Source of the DNA: Minisyncoccota bacterium
GTDB lineage: Bacteria; Patescibacteriota; Minisyncoccia; Phycocordibacterales; PALSA-1337
Length of the DNA stretch: 64,000 nt
Reading direction: 5' to 3'
Assembly (NCBI GenBank): GCA_041663145.1
Contig: JBAZRG010000001.1
Coordinates: 74,467 to 138,466, forward strand
A model generated the notes under the pieces. The model saw nothing but the letters and a program-made list of their open reading frames with translations, searched no databases and was not told where the DNA came from. Positions 1 through 30,355 of this stretch are shown one piece after another. Each line of letters begins with the position of its first letter. Position 1 is the first letter of the stretch. The translations under genes and the position numbers were made by a program.

Positions 1-421
1 TATCCAGACGATCGGTCGTGCGGCTCGAAATGCCGCCGGTCGCGTGATCTTATATGCCGATAGATTGACTGGTTCTATAAAATTCGCCATAGCGGAGACA
101 GATAGACGTCGTGCCATCCAGGTTGCATACAATAGGGAGCATGGTATTACTCCAAAAACAATAATAAAAAAGATTCACGATATTACCGATCAGTTGAGGA
201 CTGATCATGATAAGGCTGTCAATGCTCTTGTGGAAATAGATAGTGTATTGGCAGAGACCAATCCTCAATTATTGATAAAACAAAAGGAACAAGCTATGGC
301 AGAGGCAGTGAAAACCCTCGATTTTGAGACGGCCGCTTTGGTTCGGGATGAGATATCGGCTTTAGAAAAGAAATTCGGTCTAATTGTTGATAAAAAGAAA
401 GCACGTTCTAAGAGGATATGA
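1..421 (+). CDS. uvrB: Excinuclease ABC subunit B, C-terminal fragment (5' end lies outside the window)
   Basis: The frame is open from the window edge. The translation ends with a UVR domain ('LDFETAALVRDEISALEKK'), preceded by the UvrB-typical '...NREHGITPKTI' segment. Confidence 0.75.
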   Translation, partial: IQTIGRAARNAAGRVILYADRLTGSIKFAIAETDRRRAIQVAYNREHGITPKTIIKKIHDITDQLRTDHDKAVNALVEIDSVLAETNPQLLIKQKEQAMAEAVKTLDFETAALVRDEISALEKKFGLIVDKKKARSKRI

Positions 422-25804: not shown

Positions 25805-25977
25805 AGTATCAATAACGGCTTAAATCCCTTCGGATAACATCCCCACGACCAGCAGTCAACATAGTATTGGGAGTCCGGGGAGTTAATTTTACTTGTAATT
25901 TTCTGCGGTTATGATAGTGTATAGATACAAACGGCTTCGGCCCGACTCTACCGCAAGGTAGAGGTAACAAGAAGGAT

Positions 25978-26172
25978 TCAGGGTAGCAATGCCTTGAATT
26001 TTTTATAAATGATAACAGGACGGAGATAGTCTTCACCTCCGCCATCTTGCTCAAATCCAACATTCACTCCAAGAGTACACCACCAAATTTCTCCTTCATG
26101 GAAAAAGGGGCGCTTTTCGATCTGGTCAATTACGAATTTCTTATCATGCCACTTTTGAAAGTCTTTTTTCAT
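25978..26172 (-). pseudogene. Truncated paralogue of the MazF/PemK-like toxin at 28447..29082
   Basis: The 64-aa product 'KDFQKWHDKK...EGEIWWCTLGVNVGFEQDGGGEDYLRPVIIY' aligns to residues about 85-150 of the 211-aa copy and then terminates. It shares the upstream 'ATTTCCAAATAAAT..AATTTTGTTA' promoter-like block and the downstream hairpin block. Confidence 0.6.
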
Positions 26173-26860: not shown

Positions 26861-27306
26861 AATCAAAAGTAAAAATTTACGTACTTGGAAGTAGTCATTT
26901 CCAAGAAGAAATGGTTAAGTGTTCTGAACAATTGCGTACCTTGGGGCACGGTGGATGGATCCATCCAGATTATGAGGCCTTTGTGCGAGGTGAGAAACAA
27001 GACATTGTTAGTCGTTGGTTAAGTGGTGAACATGCCGCAGTTAAACGAGAGAATAATTATCTAAAGGAACATTACGAGCATATCTTGGAAAGTGATGCGA
27101 TCCTCATAGTAAATGCCGAAAAGAATGGCGTTAAAAACTATATCGGTGGAAATGTGCTAATTGAAATGGGACAAGCTTTTGTCAATAACAAGAAAATCTT
27201 CTTCCTCTATGGTATGCCTACAAAGTCTGCATATCTAGATGAAATTGAGTGTATGGATCCTATTTGTCTAAACGGAAAATTGGCGGATATTAAGAAGTAT
27301 TTATAG
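26857..27306 (+). CDS. Nucleoside 2-deoxyribosyltransferase-like protein, second paralogue
   Basis: 'KIYVLGSS' N-terminus and 'GGNVLIEMGQAFVNNKKIFFL' Glu motif. Overlaps the upstream gene by ATGA. Confidence 0.55.
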   Translation: MKSKVKIYVLGSSHFQEEMVKCSEQLRTLGHGGWIHPDYEAFVRGEKQDIVSRWLSGEHAAVKRENNYLKEHYEHILESDAILIVNAEKNGVKNYIGGNVLIEMGQAFVNNKKIFFLYGMPTKSAYLDEIECMDPICLNGKLADIKKYL

Positions 27307-27309
27307 ATA

Positions 27310-28050
27310 ATGGCTTAACAAAGCCAGATTTAGCATATCCTATTGGACAAAGTGTCAAAATGCTTGACAAATGCTGTGGGTATGCTATACTTGTCGTGTC
27401 AGGATAAGGTATTGGATACAATCTTGATGTGCTTAGTAGGCACTTTCTTCAGTACATTGTAAGTCAAGTCAGTTTCGAGGGCGCGAAGCATTTCTTCTTC
27501 GCCCTCGTCTTTGCGGTTTGGCGCTTCGGGGGTTCGTCCCACGTGCTACCGGCCGCATGTAAAAGGGCAGTTCTGGCTATAGCCTCTCTATCAGAAAGAG
27601 CCAGATAAGTGAAATTGGGTTGCAGGTATTTGTGAGAAACAAATACCACGCATGCGTTTCACTTAAGGAGATTCATTTCTCTTACCTCCATGCTTTGGCA
27701 CAAAAAGTGGAGGCGGACAACAGTTAGAATGTGTCTTGCTCGATACCCCTGAAAGAGAAAATCTGAAAGCAATATTTCAGGAAGGGGATTGAGGACAGAA
27801 TCATCTCGCGAGGATTCTATGTGGGGGTAGTAAGTGGCAAGTCGCCCACCTTCATGACCCGTCAAGCTTTCATGCGAACAAGGTTTGCCGCATGAGCCAC
27901 CCAGCATCATCTGGTGTTGGTTACAAAAGAATTTCCGAGTGGAAGTTCTGCAAACCATTAGTTACCTGCCCCTGAGCTGCGCCACATTTTGGCGATGGCT
28001 CGGGGGTTTTCTTTTTATACTAATCATAGTGGTGGAATGAAAGCTGTACA
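27310..28050. other. About 740 bp non-coding, GC-enriched, hairpin-rich region (candidate structured RNA or decayed foreign DNA)
   Basis: No ORF longer than 99 aa in any frame. GC is roughly 50% against about 38% in flanking genes. There are strong hairpins, for example CGAGGGCGCGAAG...CTTCGCCCTCG at 27477-27510, and a GGGGGTTTTCTTTTT terminator-like run at 28003-28017. Confidence 0.4.
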
Positions 28051-28055
28051 AAAAA

Positions 28056-28355
28056 GTGTTAAATTTAGTGTTACATAGGAACGAGATAATACGCCCAATG
28101 ATATATTACACTTACATTCTCAGATGTGCCGATGATTCTCTGTATGTTGGGTGTACGAACGATCTTGAAAAACGTCTTTTTCAACATAACAATTCTAAGC
28201 GAGGCGCGCACTACACGAAGATCAGAAGACCTGTAATATTGGTATACCACGAGAAATTCGTCACTCTGAGGAAAGCTCGAGGAAGGGAAGCAGAGCTCAA
28301 AAGTTGGAGAAGAGAACAAAAATTGGCGTTGGTGGGTACTAAGAAAAAGGCATAA
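28056..28355 (+). CDS. GIY-YIG nuclease superfamily protein (YhbQ/UPF0213-like, about 90-100 aa)
   Basis: 'YYTYILRCADDSLYVGCTNDLEKRLFQHN...GAHYT' GIY-YIG core. The start is probably the Met at about 28098. Confidence 0.65.
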   Translation: MLNLVLHRNEIIRPMIYYTYILRCADDSLYVGCTNDLEKRLFQHNNSKRGAHYTKIRRPVILVYHEKFVTLRKARGREAELKSWRREQKLALVGTKKKA

Positions 28356-28446
28356 CGAAATTGCTTTTTATTCATTAATTTGCTATTGTATGGACACAAG
28401 TGGCTTCGGCCTCACCTCCGAAAGGAGGAGAACAGGTGGAAAAATG

Positions 28447-29082
28447 TCAGAATAAATTTCTGGCATTTTTTCTTAATTCCTCAAATTTTTCTTTATCAAG
28501 AAAGCCTATTTTTTCGACATGACGTCGAGTATCGATTGATCGTATTTGAGAAAGAAGAGCTGACGCATGCTTTGTGTCGACTAGTCCAACAGGTATACGT
28601 AGATGATGTTTGTTGGGAGATGATGTTAGGGGGATAACCATGCATATTCTTGGTCCAAATTCTCGAATGATTACACATGGACGTAGAAATTCTTCACCAC
28701 TTCCGTCTTGTTCAAAACCAATATTGACTCCTAATCTACACCACCATATCTCTCTTGTTGTATATAGACGCTTCTCTTCAAGTTCTGCTTTTTTCTTTTT
28801 TGAATTCCATTTATCAAAATCTTTAGAATCAAGGTCTTTGTCAATCAAAGAAAATCTTATCCCATATTCTACTTCATATTCCAGATCTTTAATATGATTT
28901 TCAGCTTTATCTATTGCCAATCTTATAAAGTTAAAATCGCCGAGATGTTGTATATCCAAATCACTTTCATAATCTTTCTCAGAAACCCTAAATTTATCTA
29001 AGGAAATTTCTTCGATTTTTATATAATTGTTTGCACTCATAATAATTTGGGATAATTTTATTCTTAATTTTAGAAATAGCAA
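28447..29082 (-). CDS. MazF/PemK-family toxin fused to an acidic N-terminal extension of about 100 aa
   Basis: C-terminal 'REIWWCRLGVNIGFEQDGSGEEFLRPCVIIREFG...ICMVIPLTSS...HLRIPVG' matches the MazF/Kid pattern. The N-terminal 100 aa are D/E-rich. No separate antitoxin ORF is adjacent. Confidence 0.65.
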   Translation of the reverse strand: MLFLKLRIKLSQIIMSANNYIKIEEISLDKFRVSEKDYESDLDIQHLGDFNFIRLAIDKAENHIKDLEYEVEYGIRFSLIDKDLDSKDFDKWNSKKKKAELEEKRLYTTREIWWCRLGVNIGFEQDGSGEEFLRPCVIIREFGPRICMVIPLTSSPNKHHLRIPVGLVDTKHASALLSQIRSIDTRRHVEKIGFLDKEKFEELRKNARNLF

Positions 29083-29120
29083 GACAGACTTATATTTACC
29101 ATTTCCAAATAAATATAATT

Positions 29121-29438
29121 TTGTTAGAATACAAAATCATGACAAAAAACCCTTACCTCAACGCACTCATTGCTTCGCTTTACATCGTCTTTGTCGTACT
29201 CCTTATAACTTACGGTCCCATGTTTGTCAGAGAAAAACCGGATACAATTCTCGCTCCTATGGCGATGCTTAGCTTATTAGTTCTATCGGTTGCTTTTATG
29301 GGTTACACTTTCATCTTTCGACCGGCACTCATGTATATGGATGGACAAAAAAGTGAGGCGATAGGGCTTTTCACTAGGACATTACTTACGTTTTCTATTA
29401 TAACCGCTGTGATAGTTATTGTTGCCTTTTCCGTCTAG
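29121..29438 (+). CDS. Small membrane protein (3 predicted TM helices)
   Basis: Hydrophobic segments 'LIASLYIVFVVLLITY', 'LAPMAMLSLLVLSVAFMGY' and 'LTFSIITAVIVIVAF'. Confidence 0.45.
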   Translation: MLEYKIMTKNPYLNALIASLYIVFVVLLITYGPMFVREKPDTILAPMAMLSLLVLSVAFMGYTFIFRPALMYMDGQKSEAIGLFTRTLLTFSIITAVIVIVAFSV

Positions 29439-30355
29439 TCGAATATATTCACGAGATACTCATCAATCTTGCGTTGATCGAGATCGTAAAAAGTCTTATC
29501 TTGATTTCGAATGTCGGTTGCTAGTTTGACACCGACGAATCGCCAATGCCACGGTTCGTAGACATAGTAGCCGTTGTTTTTTGGATATGACAGGACGAAA
29601 CCATACTTATAGGCATTCCTTTGCATCCATTCGAAAGCCGGAGTGCTTTCGAAGCCGTCAATATTACCACCCAGACCGGAAGTGATCATGTCTAGAGTTG
29701 TGCCGAGTTGATGTTCGGAGTAACCCTGATCGGCTGAAAATGAATTGGCGGTGCCAGCTCCATAGGTTAGGGAGTAATTGCCTTTTAGAGCTTTTTGCTC
29801 GGCGAATGACCTATAAGCGGAAGAAACATAGAGATTGATTTTGGAAGAAGAGGCGTTCTTTAGCATGTCTATCAAATGAGGCAGAATATCGGAGTGGATG
29901 AGCATCTGCTTGCTTTCACTGTATTGATAGGTGAGCGGTATCTCCGAGAGGCGTGCTGGCACGTAATTTTCATTTAGGAAATAAGCTTTGGAATATTTTT
30001 TAAGAAGTTCCGGATCAGTTTGAGCTAGCTTCTGAAGATTGGTGAGTGTGCCTGATAGTGTGCCATATTGATTTTGGACACCGCCGAGCTGTTCCGTGAT
30101 AGCACCGACTTTTTTCTGTTCTATCGATAAGGCATTGAAAAGTGAATTGTTCGTGTCTTTTATCGAAGCTTGTAAAACTTCAGTCGTAGATGATAAAGCT
30201 GTGGAAAGAGTCAAAATATTTGCATTCAAATCCGAAACTTTGAGAGAAAGCGAATTCATCCGAAAATGAGAATATATTAGTGTAAAGACTAGGACTATAG
30301 AGACAGAAGCGAATAAGAAAGTATTTGATTTTGGTGTGAAATTTAATGGTGTCAT
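29435..30355 (-). CDS. D-alanyl-D-alanine carboxypeptidase, peptidase M15 (VanY-like)
   Basis: 'SAYRS...EQ', 'SEHQLGTTLD' and 'EPWHWR' zinc-ligand motifs. N-terminal TM. Confidence 0.7.
   Translation of the reverse strand: MTPLNFTPKSNTFLFASVSIVLVFTLIYSHFRMNSLSLKVSDLNANILTLSTALSSTTEVLQASIKDTNNSLFNALSIEQKKVGAITEQLGGVQNQYGTLSGTLTNLQKLAQTDPELLKKYSKAYFLNENYVPARLSEIPLTYQYSESKQMLIHSDILPHLIDMLKNASSSKINLYVSSAYRSFAEQKALKGNYSLTYGAGTANSFSADQGYSEHQLGTTLDMITSGLGGNIDGFESTPAFEWMQRNAYKYGFVLSYPKNNGYYVYEPWHWRFVGVKLATDIRNQDKTFYDLDQRKIDEYLVNIFD

What the first reader, a model, noticed from the sequence alone, without database searches (positions are those of the whole stretch)
28447..29082. MazF/PemK-like endoribonuclease fused to an acidic N-terminal domain of about 100 aa, with no separate antitoxin gene
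The C-terminal 110 aa carry the MazF/Kid signature (EIWWC.LGVN.GFEQDG...RPCVII...ICMVIPLTSS). The N-terminal 100 aa are D/E-rich, like the MazF-binding tails of MazE antitoxins. This could be a single-chain toxin-antitoxin fusion or a regulatory domain. The same fusion boundary (KDFxKW...) is retained in the truncated paralogue, so the extension is ancestral and not an ORF-calling artefact.
Basis: partly seen in the sequence, partly recalled or inferred. Interest (0 to 1): 0.55.

Follow-up and report, generated by a model that had tools for sequence, protein, structure and literature searches.

The report
MazF toxin with antisense RNA partner
This gene from an uncultured Paceibacterota (CPR) bacterium really does fuse a small acidic domain to a MazF RNA-cutting toxin, but the partner conserved across the whole toxin clade is an undescribed ~76-nt antisense RNA gene at the toxin's 3' end, which is probably the missing antitoxin.

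Summary
**Gene.** It is real and intact at 28447..29040 (-), 197 aa, starting at the ATG. The TTG at 29082 is the -35 box of its own promoter. Residues 96-197 are a catalytically complete MazF. Residues 1-64 form a folded acidic b-b-b-a-b domain with no known family.

**The extension is not ancestral.** Most relatives are 127 aa and start at MxKDFDxWN, as does the window's truncated paralogue. In some relatives the N-domain is a separate gene 4-14 nt upstream of mazF, the classical antitoxin position. Distant homologues occur alone, including one on a viral contig.

**Main result.** Every usable locus of this CPR MazF clade carries a convergent small RNA gene: sigma-70 promoter, UUCG hairpin, GNRA hairpin, and a bidirectional terminator overlapping the mazF stop codon. 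In the window it lies at about 28397-28472 (+). A second copy sits beside the paralogue.
- Thirteen of 18 base pairs show compensatory changes.
- An RNA-first metagenome search found MazF opposite 55 of 63 copies.
- At least four of the other eight lie beside mazF remnants with the RNA intact.

**Reading.** An RNA-controlled MazF module with type I-like architecture, the N-domain being an optional protein partner. All of this is computational.

The parts
28447..29040 (-). Fused gene, 197 aa (ATG 29040, stop 28447-28449): N-domain + linker + clade-specific helix + MazF core
   Evidence: ORF. Identical 197-aa protein P0001 named PemK/MazF family toxin, Candidatus Paceibacterota. Alignment of 25 full-length homologues.
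28849..29040 (-). N-domain, residues 1-64: acidic b-b-b-a-b domain (MSANNYI..EYGIRF), no known family
   Evidence: AF2 pLDDT 84, pTM 0.72, strands 5-13, 16-23, 29-36, helix 39-51, strand 60-64. No Pfam/NCBIfam/PHROG hit. No PDB fold match below E 0.05. Profile search finds 185 representative clusters, most of those listed stand-alone at 58-80 aa.
28825..28848 (-). Linker, residues 65-72 (LIDKDLDS), variable in length and sequence among homologues
   Evidence: Alignment A1. pLDDT below 50 for residues 68-73.
28756..28824 (-). Clade-specific N-terminal segment of the MazF family, residues 73-95 (KDFDKWNSKKKK...). This is the N-terminus of the usual 127-aa form.
   Evidence: Invariant K73, F75, W78, K82. 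The 127-aa homologues start MxKDFDxWN. Not covered by PF02452 or PDB MazF matches.
28450..28755 (-). MazF/PemK endoribonuclease core, residues 96-197, catalytic R120 and T139 present
   Evidence: PF02452 E 2e-13. Profile match to B. subtilis EndoA 4mdx. Foldseek matches to S. aureus, M. tuberculosis, B. subtilis and E. coli MazF.
29055..29082 (-). mazF promoter: -35 TTGCTA (29082-29077), 16 nt, -10 TAAAAT (29060-29055). Leader of only ~8 nt, no Shine-Dalgarno.
   Evidence: Promoter scan. Across 59 loci a >=5/6 TATAAT hexamer ends 4-12 nt before the mazF ATG in 25, against ~3 expected. An SD-like tetramer is present in 2 of 59.
28361..28389 (+). Promoter of the antisense sRNA: -35 TTGCTT (28361-66), 17 nt, -10 TATTGT (28384-89). 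Weaker than in most relatives.
   Evidence: A TTGnnn-16..18-TAnnnT pattern at the same place in 75 of 79 loci, mostly TTGAC[AT]...TAtAcT. The window's copy falls below the consensus scan's threshold.
28397..28472 (+). Antisense sRNA (~76 nt; CM hit 28394-28480): HP1 28402-11 (GGC-UUCG-GCC), HP2 28415-28 (CCUCC-GAAA-GGAGG), purine-rich linker, terminator hairpin
   Evidence: CM R1 92.3 bits, E 7e-25. MFE -31.8 kcal/mol, z -5.2. On seed A4, 96.8% of cells paired and 13 of 18 pairs with compensatory change, 0/500 shuffles. No Rfam family.
28440..28471 (.). Bidirectional intrinsic terminator shared by mazF and the sRNA: A-tract, hairpin 28445-28465, U-tract 28466-71. It contains the mazF stop codon and last ~7 codons. 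This is the only region of sense/antisense overlap (~33 nt).
   Evidence: Sequence. Fold. HP3 covariation, 8 of 10 pairs. GAAAAGCCGUCA..UGACGGCUUUUC symmetry across loci.
25978..26172 (-). Truncated mazF paralogue of a second subtype, 64 aa: in-frame internal deletion (..YKKF|KALLP*), short form starting MKKDFQKW
   Evidence: ORF and upstream stop. 88% identical to residues 73-132 of P0038, and its last 8 residues match the last 8 of P0038.
25925..26012 (+). Second copy of the antisense sRNA, beside the truncated paralogue. Promoter TTGTAA(25893-98)-16-TAGTGT(25915-20). HP2 is CUCUACC-GCAA-GGUAGAG.
   Evidence: CM 38.3 bits, E 8e-9. MFE -32.5 kcal/mol, z -5.25. Promoter pattern.

Best explanation
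The locus is a toxin module of a MazF clade found in CPR (Patescibacteria) genomes. Its conserved partner is an RNA, not a protein.

Shown by computation:
- mazF is transcribed from its own promoter as a leaderless or nearly leaderless mRNA. It ends at an intrinsic terminator that includes its stop codon.
- A convergent ~76-nt sRNA gene starts ~50 nt beyond the stop. It is driven by its own sigma-70 promoter and folds into a UUCG hairpin and a GNRA hairpin. It ends at the same terminator read from the other side.
- The two RNAs are therefore perfectly complementary over ~33 nt. That stretch covers the stop codon and the last ~7 codons.

Inferred:
- The sRNA is the antitoxin or repressor. Loop-loop contact at the shared terminator hairpins would extend to a duplex.
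- Duplex cleavage (for example by RNase III) would remove the stop codon and 3' end of the mazF mRNA. MazF synthesis would then be blocked or its product degraded.
- This is type I-like, as in txpA/RatA, bsrG/SR4 or par Fst RNAI/RNAII.
- The invariant 5' hairpins either stabilise the sRNA or add direct MazF binding.

N-terminal domain:
- In this gene it is an optional third component. It is a small acidic protein that is a separate upstream gene in some relatives and is fused here.
- It most likely binds the basic MazF as a cis inhibitor or regulator, giving a second, protein-level lock. This is inferred, not shown.
For: **MazF identity.** Pfam, catalytic residues and fold all agree.

**No conserved protein antitoxin.** None is found upstream of the 127-aa forms or next to this gene.

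**sRNA gene.**
- Promoter in 75 of 79 loci.
- Three helices with 96.8% pairing and 13 of 18 covarying pairs.
- HP1 flips GGC/GCC to GCC/GGC in 25 of 60 sequences.
- The CM finds it antisense at the mazF 3' end in all 78 genome loci with usable sequence there. In the window it occurs only at the two mazF loci within 64 kb.
- Both window copies fold with z about -5.2.

**Reciprocal test.** An RNA-only pattern retrieved 72 copies from metagenomes. Of the 63 with enough flank, 55 have MazF on the opposite strand. The C-terminus lies 48-59 nt from the pattern start in 47 of them.

**Decay pattern typical of toxin-antitoxin pairs.** mazF is repeatedly truncated or internally deleted while the RNA stays intact. 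Examples are the window paralogue, L086, L095/96, L110, L120, L150, L165 and the orphan in L001.

**N-domain as a partner.** It is a separate upstream gene in L087/88/89/167/168. It is fused to two MazF subtypes. Its net charge is -9.
Against: - No expression data. All evidence is comparative.
- The overlap is short (~33 nt) and lies inside stable hairpins.
- In a divergent subtype (L089, L167) the shared terminator lies outside the ORF.
- No second, cognate-specific pairing with the mazF 5' end was found (p 0.4).
- The most conserved RNA part (UGGCUUCGGCCUC) lies beyond the mazF terminator. Antisense pairing does not explain it, which favours protein recognition.
- The window's sRNA promoter is sub-consensus (TTGCTT, TATTGT) and is not called by the scan.
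- Seed A4 was chosen for uniform HP2 length, and CM alignments lean to the model.
- For the N-domain: most clade members lack it, distant homologues occur without MazF, and AF2 gives no confident interdomain packing (pTM 0.49).
Confidence: 0.55

Rival explanations
1. Type III-like mechanism. The sRNA neutralises MazF by binding the protein directly as a structured pseudo-substrate or decoy. The antisense overlap would be only a consequence of sharing a terminator.
For: - The invariant element UGGCUUCGGCCUC and HP2 lie outside the region complementary to mazF mRNA. They are nevertheless the best conserved part, with structure-preserving flips.
- The element persists in the divergent subtype, where the overlap misses the ORF.
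- Orphan RNA copies persist without a target.
- The clade has a unique basic N-terminal segment (KDFDxWNxxKK) that co-occurs with the RNA.
- ToxN, the toxin of the type III ToxIN system, is reported to have a Kid/MazF-like fold (established knowledge).
Against: - No tandem repeats and no upstream repeat array as in ToxI.
- The RNA is encoded convergently, not upstream.
- No binding data.
- 5' hairpins are also common simple stabilisers of antisense RNAs.
Confidence: 0.25
2. The N-domain is the sole antitoxin, making a single-chain type II toxin-antitoxin. The downstream RNA element is just a terminator or insulator.
For: - The N-domain is a separate gene in the antitoxin position in five relatives.
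- It is retained after MazF deletion.
- It is acidic, facing a basic toxin.
Against: - 77 of the 80 best genome loci have neither the fused nor a nearby separate N-domain, yet keep an intact MazF with catalytic residues. Another neutraliser must therefore exist.
- The RNA has its own conserved promoter and two hairpins that a terminator does not need.
- Fused and two-gene loci still carry the RNA.
- The N-domain has no recognisable DNA-binding or MazE-like features.
Confidence: 0.15
3. The N-domain is not an inhibitor. It is a sensor, adaptor or oligomerisation module, possibly of phage origin, that tunes when MazF fires. An analogy is the trigger-sensing antitoxin domain described for the fused toxin-antitoxin CapRelSJ46.
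For: - Homologues stand alone in phage-like gene strings and on an IMG/VR viral contig inside a replication module.
- The domain is fused to unrelated C-terminal regions in other proteins, such as P0150, P0224 and P0249.
- The structural neighbours are small uncharacterised phage proteins (best E 1.8e-3).
Against: - The tight bicistronic arrangement with mazF is the classical antitoxin layout.
- No trigger or ligand is identifiable.
- The structural matches are weak.
Confidence: 0.3
4. This MazF clade is not a toxin. It would be a housekeeping or processing RNase, with the sRNA as its substrate or cofactor.
For: There is no protein antitoxin. The clade is widespread in reduced CPR genomes, with several copies per genome.
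Against: - Variable genomic neighbourhoods.
- Multiple paralogues per genome.
- Frequent independent inactivating deletions with RNA retention. This is typical of selfish toxin modules, not of essential enzymes.
Confidence: 0.07

Closest known systems
MazF/PemK/EndoA endoribonuclease toxins of type II MazEF systems (PF02452; e.g. B. subtilis EndoA, PDB 4mdx)
   Same: Sequence family, fold and catalytic Arg/Thr.
   Different: - No MazE/AbrB/RHH-type antitoxin gene.
- An extra ~23-aa N-terminal segment (KDFDxWNxxKK) in the whole clade.
- Here also a 64-aa fused N-domain.
- A conserved convergent sRNA gene.
Type I toxin-antitoxin systems with 3'-overlapping or terminator-sharing antisense RNAs (B. 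subtilis txpA/RatA, bsrG/SR4; E. faecalis par Fst RNAI/RNAII)
   Same: - Convergent toxin mRNA and small antisense RNA, each with its own promoter.
- The overlap is at the 3' ends.
- As in par, a shared bidirectional terminator.
   Different: - The toxin is a 127-197-aa MazF RNase, not a small membrane peptide.
- The overlap is only ~33 nt.
- No second complementary region such as the par direct repeats.
- The RNA has conserved non-complementary hairpins.
SymE/SymR (E. coli), a type I system with a nuclease-like toxin of the MazE/AbrB fold (PMC1891008)
   Same: A cis-antisense RNA controls a non-peptide, RNA-cleaving toxin related to type II components.
   Different: SymR overlaps the 5' end and RBS of symE. 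SymE is AbrB-fold, not MazF-fold.
Type III ToxIN (ToxN toxin with reported Kid/MazF-like fold, ToxI RNA repeats)
   Same: A MazF-fold RNase paired with an RNA rather than a protein antitoxin.
   Different: - ToxI is a tandem repeat array upstream of toxN, processed by the toxin.
- Here there are no repeats, and the RNA is a convergent stand-alone gene.
aMEF antisense RNA of E. coli mazEF (PMC8749433) and the asRNA-co-regulated 'type IIb' RelBE of M. tuberculosis (PMC9325379)
   Same: An antisense RNA associated with a type II-family toxin locus.
   Different: Those loci keep a protein antitoxin and the RNA only tunes expression. In this clade most loci have no protein partner at all.
Fused single-chain toxin-antitoxins (CapRelSJ46, EzeT)
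   Same: A domain that is a separate gene in relatives is fused in cis to the toxin.
   Different: - The domain is N-terminal and unrelated in sequence.
- Neutralisation is untested.
- An RNA partner is present as well.

Membership tests
MazF/PemK toxin family (PF02452) | Sequence match above the curated threshold | tested here: met
   50.9 bits against a cut-off of 23.1, E 2e-13, residues 96-195.
MazF/PemK toxin family (PF02452) | Catalytic Arg (loop b1-b2) and Thr/Ser conserved | tested here: met
   R120 is invariant. T139 is nearly invariant (T in at least 90% of sequences). They align with the Arg of GGVRPV and the Thr of AAITAQ in B. subtilis EndoA.
MazF/PemK toxin family (PF02452) | MazF/CcdB-type SH3-like barrel fold | tested here: met
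   Foldseek of the AF2 model gives 129 PDB matches with E<=0.001. All 50 listed are MazF-family structures, with TM on target 0.60-0.76.
MazF/PemK toxin family (PF02452) | Sequence-specific endoribonuclease activity and toxicity | not testable with these tools
   Needs expression and cleavage assays.
Type II toxin-antitoxin (MazEF-like) | Adjacent co-transcribed protein antitoxin gene | tested here: not met
   - None in the window.
- No conserved upstream ORF in 127-aa loci.
- A minority of relatives have the N-domain as an upstream gene.
Type II toxin-antitoxin (MazEF-like) | Antitoxin with DNA-binding domain plus toxin-binding tail | tested here: not met
   The N-domain has no Pfam/NCBIfam match and no AbrB/RHH/HTH fold. 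It is a compact b-b-b-a-b domain.
Type I toxin-antitoxin | Small antisense RNA gene with own promoter and terminator, complementary to the toxin mRNA | tested here: met
   Promoter in 75 of 79 loci, covarying structure, terminator with U-tract, ~33-nt overlap including the stop codon.
Type I toxin-antitoxin | Toxin is a small hydrophobic peptide (usual, with exceptions such as SymE and RalR) | tested here: not met
   The toxin is a 127-197-aa MazF RNase.
Type I toxin-antitoxin | The RNA represses toxin synthesis | not testable with these tools
   Needs genetics or RNA work.
Type III toxin-antitoxin (ToxIN-like) | Tandem-repeat RNA antitoxin upstream of the toxin gene | tested here: not met
   No tandem repeats in 28000-29500. 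The RNA is convergent and downstream.
Type III toxin-antitoxin (ToxIN-like) | The RNA binds and inhibits the toxin protein | not testable with these tools
   Needs binding assays or a protein-RNA complex prediction.
Fused (single-chain) toxin-antitoxin | The fused domain is homologous to a free-standing partner gene of related two-gene loci | tested here: met
   The separate N-domain genes upstream of mazF match window residues 1-65/68 at 48.5% (L087/L088) and 57% (L089) identity. L167 and L168 show the same layout.
Fused (single-chain) toxin-antitoxin | The fused domain neutralises the toxin in cis | not testable with these tools
   AF2 gives no confident interdomain geometry (pTM 0.49).
Rfam RNA families | Match at gathering score to any of the 4227 models | tested here: not met
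   No match at the locus. The best sub-threshold match is RsaF at 29 bits against 60.

The most novel reading that the evidence does not exclude
A large CPR-wide clade of MazF toxins forms a previously unrecognised class of toxin-antitoxin module.
- A type II-family endoribonuclease is kept in check by a dedicated, structured, convergently encoded sRNA that shares its terminator. The result is a type I/III-type hybrid.
- An optional small acidic protein can be fused to the toxin (as here), encoded just upstream, or carried alone by phages. The phage copies would be possible anti-toxin mimics.
- The module repeatedly decays by deletion of the toxin while the RNA is kept.
Probability: 0.4. Interest if true: 0.85.

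Novelty: new variant of a known kind. Interest (0 to 1): 0.72.

Why it matters
- MazF is one of the best-studied toxins and is, in the described systems, paired with a protein antitoxin. Here hundreds of apparently solo MazF genes in CPR bacteria, annotated only as 'type II PemK/MazF family toxin', carry a conserved RNA gene that annotation pipelines and Rfam miss.
- If the RNA is the antitoxin, the line between type I, II and III systems is blurred for a canonical toxin family.
- It would also explain how orphan MazFs are tolerated in minimal genomes.
- The system offers a compact RNA-controlled RNase switch.
- The fused, split and phage-borne forms of the N-domain offer a natural series for asking how protein and RNA control layers are combined. 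They also allow a test of whether phages counter such modules with mimics.

Tried and rejected
- **Missed upstream protein antitoxin.** ORFs upstream of 127-aa homologues are short and not conserved between loci. The window gene has a divergent neighbour.
- **Internal start at the junction.** There is no Met, GTG or TTG context. All fused homologues read through.
- **Known RNA.** Nothing in Rfam at gathering score or at relaxed E-values, and no tRNA or tmRNA at the locus.
- **HicB-like N-domain**, suggested by the b-b-b-a-b topology. Foldseek against the PDB gave only generic RNase H-like or actin-like subdomains at E>=0.05. A sequence profile against the PDB gave nothing. BFVD gave weak matches to unnamed small phage proteins.
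- **Second sRNA-mRNA pairing site at the mazF 5' end**, as in par. Cognate pairs are no better than non-cognate ones.
- **Tandem repeats, as in type III.** None.
- **Terminator scan.** The hairpin has too few G-C pairs in this AT-rich copy to be called. It is G+C-rich in most relatives.
- **Literature.** Four full-text searches found no description of a MazF with only an RNA partner, nor of CPR MazF modules.

Full report
**1. The observation**

The minus-strand ORF ending at 28447 is real. Its product is identical to a database protein of 197 aa. That protein is named 'type II toxin-antitoxin system PemK/MazF family toxin, Candidatus Paceibacterota bacterium' and sits on a 357-kb contig. The window is therefore from a CPR/Patescibacteria genome.

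All homologues start at MSANN. The ATG at 29040 is the start. The TTG at 29082 that opens the 211-aa ORF is the -35 hexamer of a TTGCTA-16-TAAAAT promoter.

Residues 96-195 match PF02452 (E 2e-13). A family profile aligns to B. subtilis EndoA with the catalytic Arg and Thr conserved as R120 and T139. The AF2 model matches solved MazF structures.

Residues 1-72 carry 18 acidic against 9 basic residues. They match nothing in Pfam, NCBIfam or PHROGs.

**2. The extension is a folded domain, is derived, and is sometimes a separate gene**

- *Fold.* Predicted alone, the extension is a confident b-b-b-a-b domain (pLDDT 84, pTM 0.72). Foldseek found no PDB relative below E 0.05. The top hits are generic RNase H-like or actin-like subdomains. 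Against BFVD it found only weak similarity to small uncharacterised phage proteins.
- *Frequency.* About 40 of the 120 best-scoring protein clusters carry it, out of 442 hits. The rest listed are mostly about 127 aa and begin MxKDFDxWN. Among the 80 best genome loci only L006, L007 and L009 have it.
- *The paralogue.* The window's truncated paralogue (25978..26172) is of the short type. It starts at M-KKDFQKW with a stop four codons upstream. It is an in-frame internal deletion..YKKF|KALLP*, of a second MazF subtype.
- *Distribution of the domain.* A profile of the domain finds 185 representative clusters. Most of those listed are stand-alone proteins of 58-80 aa. Their contexts fall into three groups:
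  - *Separate gene.* It lies 4-14 nt upstream of a 127/137-aa mazF in L087, L088, L089, L167 and L168.
  - *Fused genes that lost the MazF domain.* Examples are L086 (..SKDF|SLRKV*) and L165.
  - *Distant homologues with no MazF.* These sit in strings of small unknown genes (L090-L093). One sits in the replication module of an IMG/VR viral contig (L094). Others are fused to unrelated C-terminal regions.
- *Domain shuffling.* In P0038 the same N-domain (72% identical in N-domain alignment A2) is joined to the second MazF subtype.

**3. The conserved partner is an RNA gene**

Upstream of the 127-aa forms there is no conserved ORF. Immediately downstream of the stop codon the DNA is conserved across loci with unrelated neighbours.

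Read on the strand antisense to mazF, this DNA contains the following elements:
- a TTGAC[AT]-16..18-TAnnnT promoter, in 75 of 79 loci;
- about 7 nt, then ACAAGU;
- a GGC-UUCG-GCC hairpin (HP1);
- a second hairpin of variable sequence, usually with a GNRA loop (HP2);
- a purine-rich linker;
- a hairpin flanked by an A-tract and a U-tract (HP3), which contains the antisense of the mazF stop codon and last ~7 codons.

Support for the structure:
- On a 26-sequence seed, 96.8% of cells pair and 13 of 18 pairs show compensatory changes. No shuffle of 500 reaches this, and no slid register reaches it either.
- In an unselected 60-sequence alignment, HP1 flips G-C to C-G in 25 sequences. HP3 covaries at most positions.

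Distribution of the covariance model:
- It scores 92 bits at 28394-28480 (+) and 38 bits at 25925-26012 (+) beside the paralogue. There are no other credible hits in the 64-kb window.
- It finds the RNA antisense at the mazF 3' end in all 78 genome loci with usable sequence there. It also finds a few orphan copies.
- Both window copies fold as predicted (z about -5.2).
- Rfam has no such family.
- A divergent MazF subtype (L089, L167) has a shorter variant. This variant has the same promoter and the same UGGCUUCGGCCUC hairpin, then a single GAAA-loop terminator abutting the stop codon.

**4. Reciprocal and decay evidence**

Searching metagenomes with an RNA-only pattern gave 72 copies in 70 loci. 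Of the 63 copies with enough flank, 55 have a MazF gene on the opposite strand. The C-terminus lies 48-59 nt from the pattern start in 47 of them.

At least four of the other eight, and several partial matches, are mazF remnants with the RNA intact. They include C-terminal fragments, truncations and internal deletions joining the N-terminal helix to the last residues (L095/96, L110, L120, L150). One orphan lies beside HicA/HicB-like ORFs (L152).

Repeated loss of the toxin with retention of its partner is the usual decay pattern of toxin-antitoxin modules. The window itself shows it at 25925-26172.

**5. How it probably works**

Shown by computation:
- Two convergent transcription units share one bidirectional terminator. 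The RNAs are therefore complementary over ~33 nt (28440-28472).
- mazF has a -10 box 4-12 nt before its ATG in 25 of 59 loci, against ~3 expected. It has no Shine-Dalgarno sequence. This leaves no 5' leader to regulate.

Inferred:
- The sRNA is the antitoxin or repressor, acting at the 3' end as in txpA/RatA, bsrG/SR4 or the terminator-sharing par locus. Duplex cleavage would strip the stop codon.
- I found no second pairing site at the 5' end.
- The invariant 5' hairpins are not explained by antisense pairing. Direct binding of MazF (type III-like) is therefore a serious rival or an additional layer.
- The N-domain is most simply an optional protein partner of MazF. It is possibly a cis inhibitor, fused here and split elsewhere, with phage-borne relatives. 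AF2 gives no confident interdomain packing (pTM 0.49). Neutralisation is untested.

**6. Comparison and novelty**

By every testable criterion the protein is a member of the MazF/PemK family. The module fails the defining feature of type II systems (protein antitoxin operon) in most loci. It meets the architectural definition of type I apart from toxin type. It fails the repeat-array definition of type III.

Known antisense RNAs at type II loci, aMEF (PMC8749433) and the M. tuberculosis RelBE asRNA (PMC9325379), coexist with protein antitoxins. SymE/SymR (PMC1891008) is the nearest conceptual precedent. Four literature searches found no description of this module.

I rate it a new variant of a known kind, with interest 0.72. 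The RNA is the finding.

**7. Caveats**

- Nothing here shows expression, toxicity or neutralisation.
- The window's sRNA promoter is weaker than the family consensus.
- CM E-values are rough.
- The seed alignment was selected for equal HP2 length.

Noticed in passing
window 27306-28056: A 750-bp stretch without credible ORFs. It has a near-consensus promoter (TTGACA-17-TATACT at 27365-27392, + strand) and G+C-rich hairpins such as GAGGGCGCGAAGCATTTCTTCTTCGCCCTC. No Rfam match at E<=0.01. It may be an unannotated structured RNA or a decayed gene.
   Followed up: partly
L001 2836-2925 (-); also L055 2108-2201, L017 967-1053, L011 2975-3072, L036 2897-2992: Extra or orphan copies of the sRNA not paired with an intact mazF. 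The L001, L055 and window-paralogue copies share a distinct subtype (ACAAACGGCUUCGGCCCGACUC...).
   Followed up: partly
L110, L150, L120, L095/L096, L086, L165: Independent internal or 5' deletions of mazF that keep the first and last few codons and the intact sRNA. L150 would encode roughly MEKNFDQWNEVKKRTKALL. The deletions seem to respect the sRNA terminator embedded in the mazF 3' end.
   Followed up: partly
L094 3001-3192 (IMG/VR viral contig, 51 kb): A stand-alone 63-aa N-domain homologue (MSANNYILIKK...EYGIDIQL) inside a phage replication-type gene cluster: a helicase-like 307-aa ORF, a 290-aa putative initiator and a small HTH protein. It could be an anti-toxin mimic.
   Followed up: no
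P0150 (143 aa), P0224 (165 aa), P0249 (133 aa), P0235 (119 aa): The N-domain also occurs fused to unrelated C-terminal regions. P0150 has a Cys/His-rich tail. P0249 has a weak Peptidase_M15_4 match. The domain is therefore modular and not MazF-specific.
   Followed up: no
L089 3180-3260 and L167 2135-2215 (minus strand): A short variant of the sRNA in a divergent 137-aa MazF subtype with a separate N-domain gene. It has the same promoter and UUCG hairpin but a single GAAA-loop terminator that ends at the stop codon. The CM scores it only 18 bits or misses it.
   Followed up: partly
L152 (oriented fragment, about 260-750): An orphan sRNA copy lies next to HicB-like and HicA-like ORFs, suggesting a small toxin-antitoxin island.
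   Followed up: no
window 28056-28355; L167 2344-3207; L087/L088 4821-5186: Small nuclease-type genes (GIY-YIG here; NYN and GIY-YIG in L167; DUF559 in L087/L088) recur within 1-2 kb of these mazF modules. The significance is unknown.
   Followed up: no
P0038 compared with window 25978-26172 and 28825-29040: P0038 joins an N-domain 72% identical to the window's (N-domain alignment A2) to a MazF part 88% identical to the window's truncated second-subtype paralogue. This implies recombination at the conserved KDFxKW junction between paralogous modules.
   Followed up: partly
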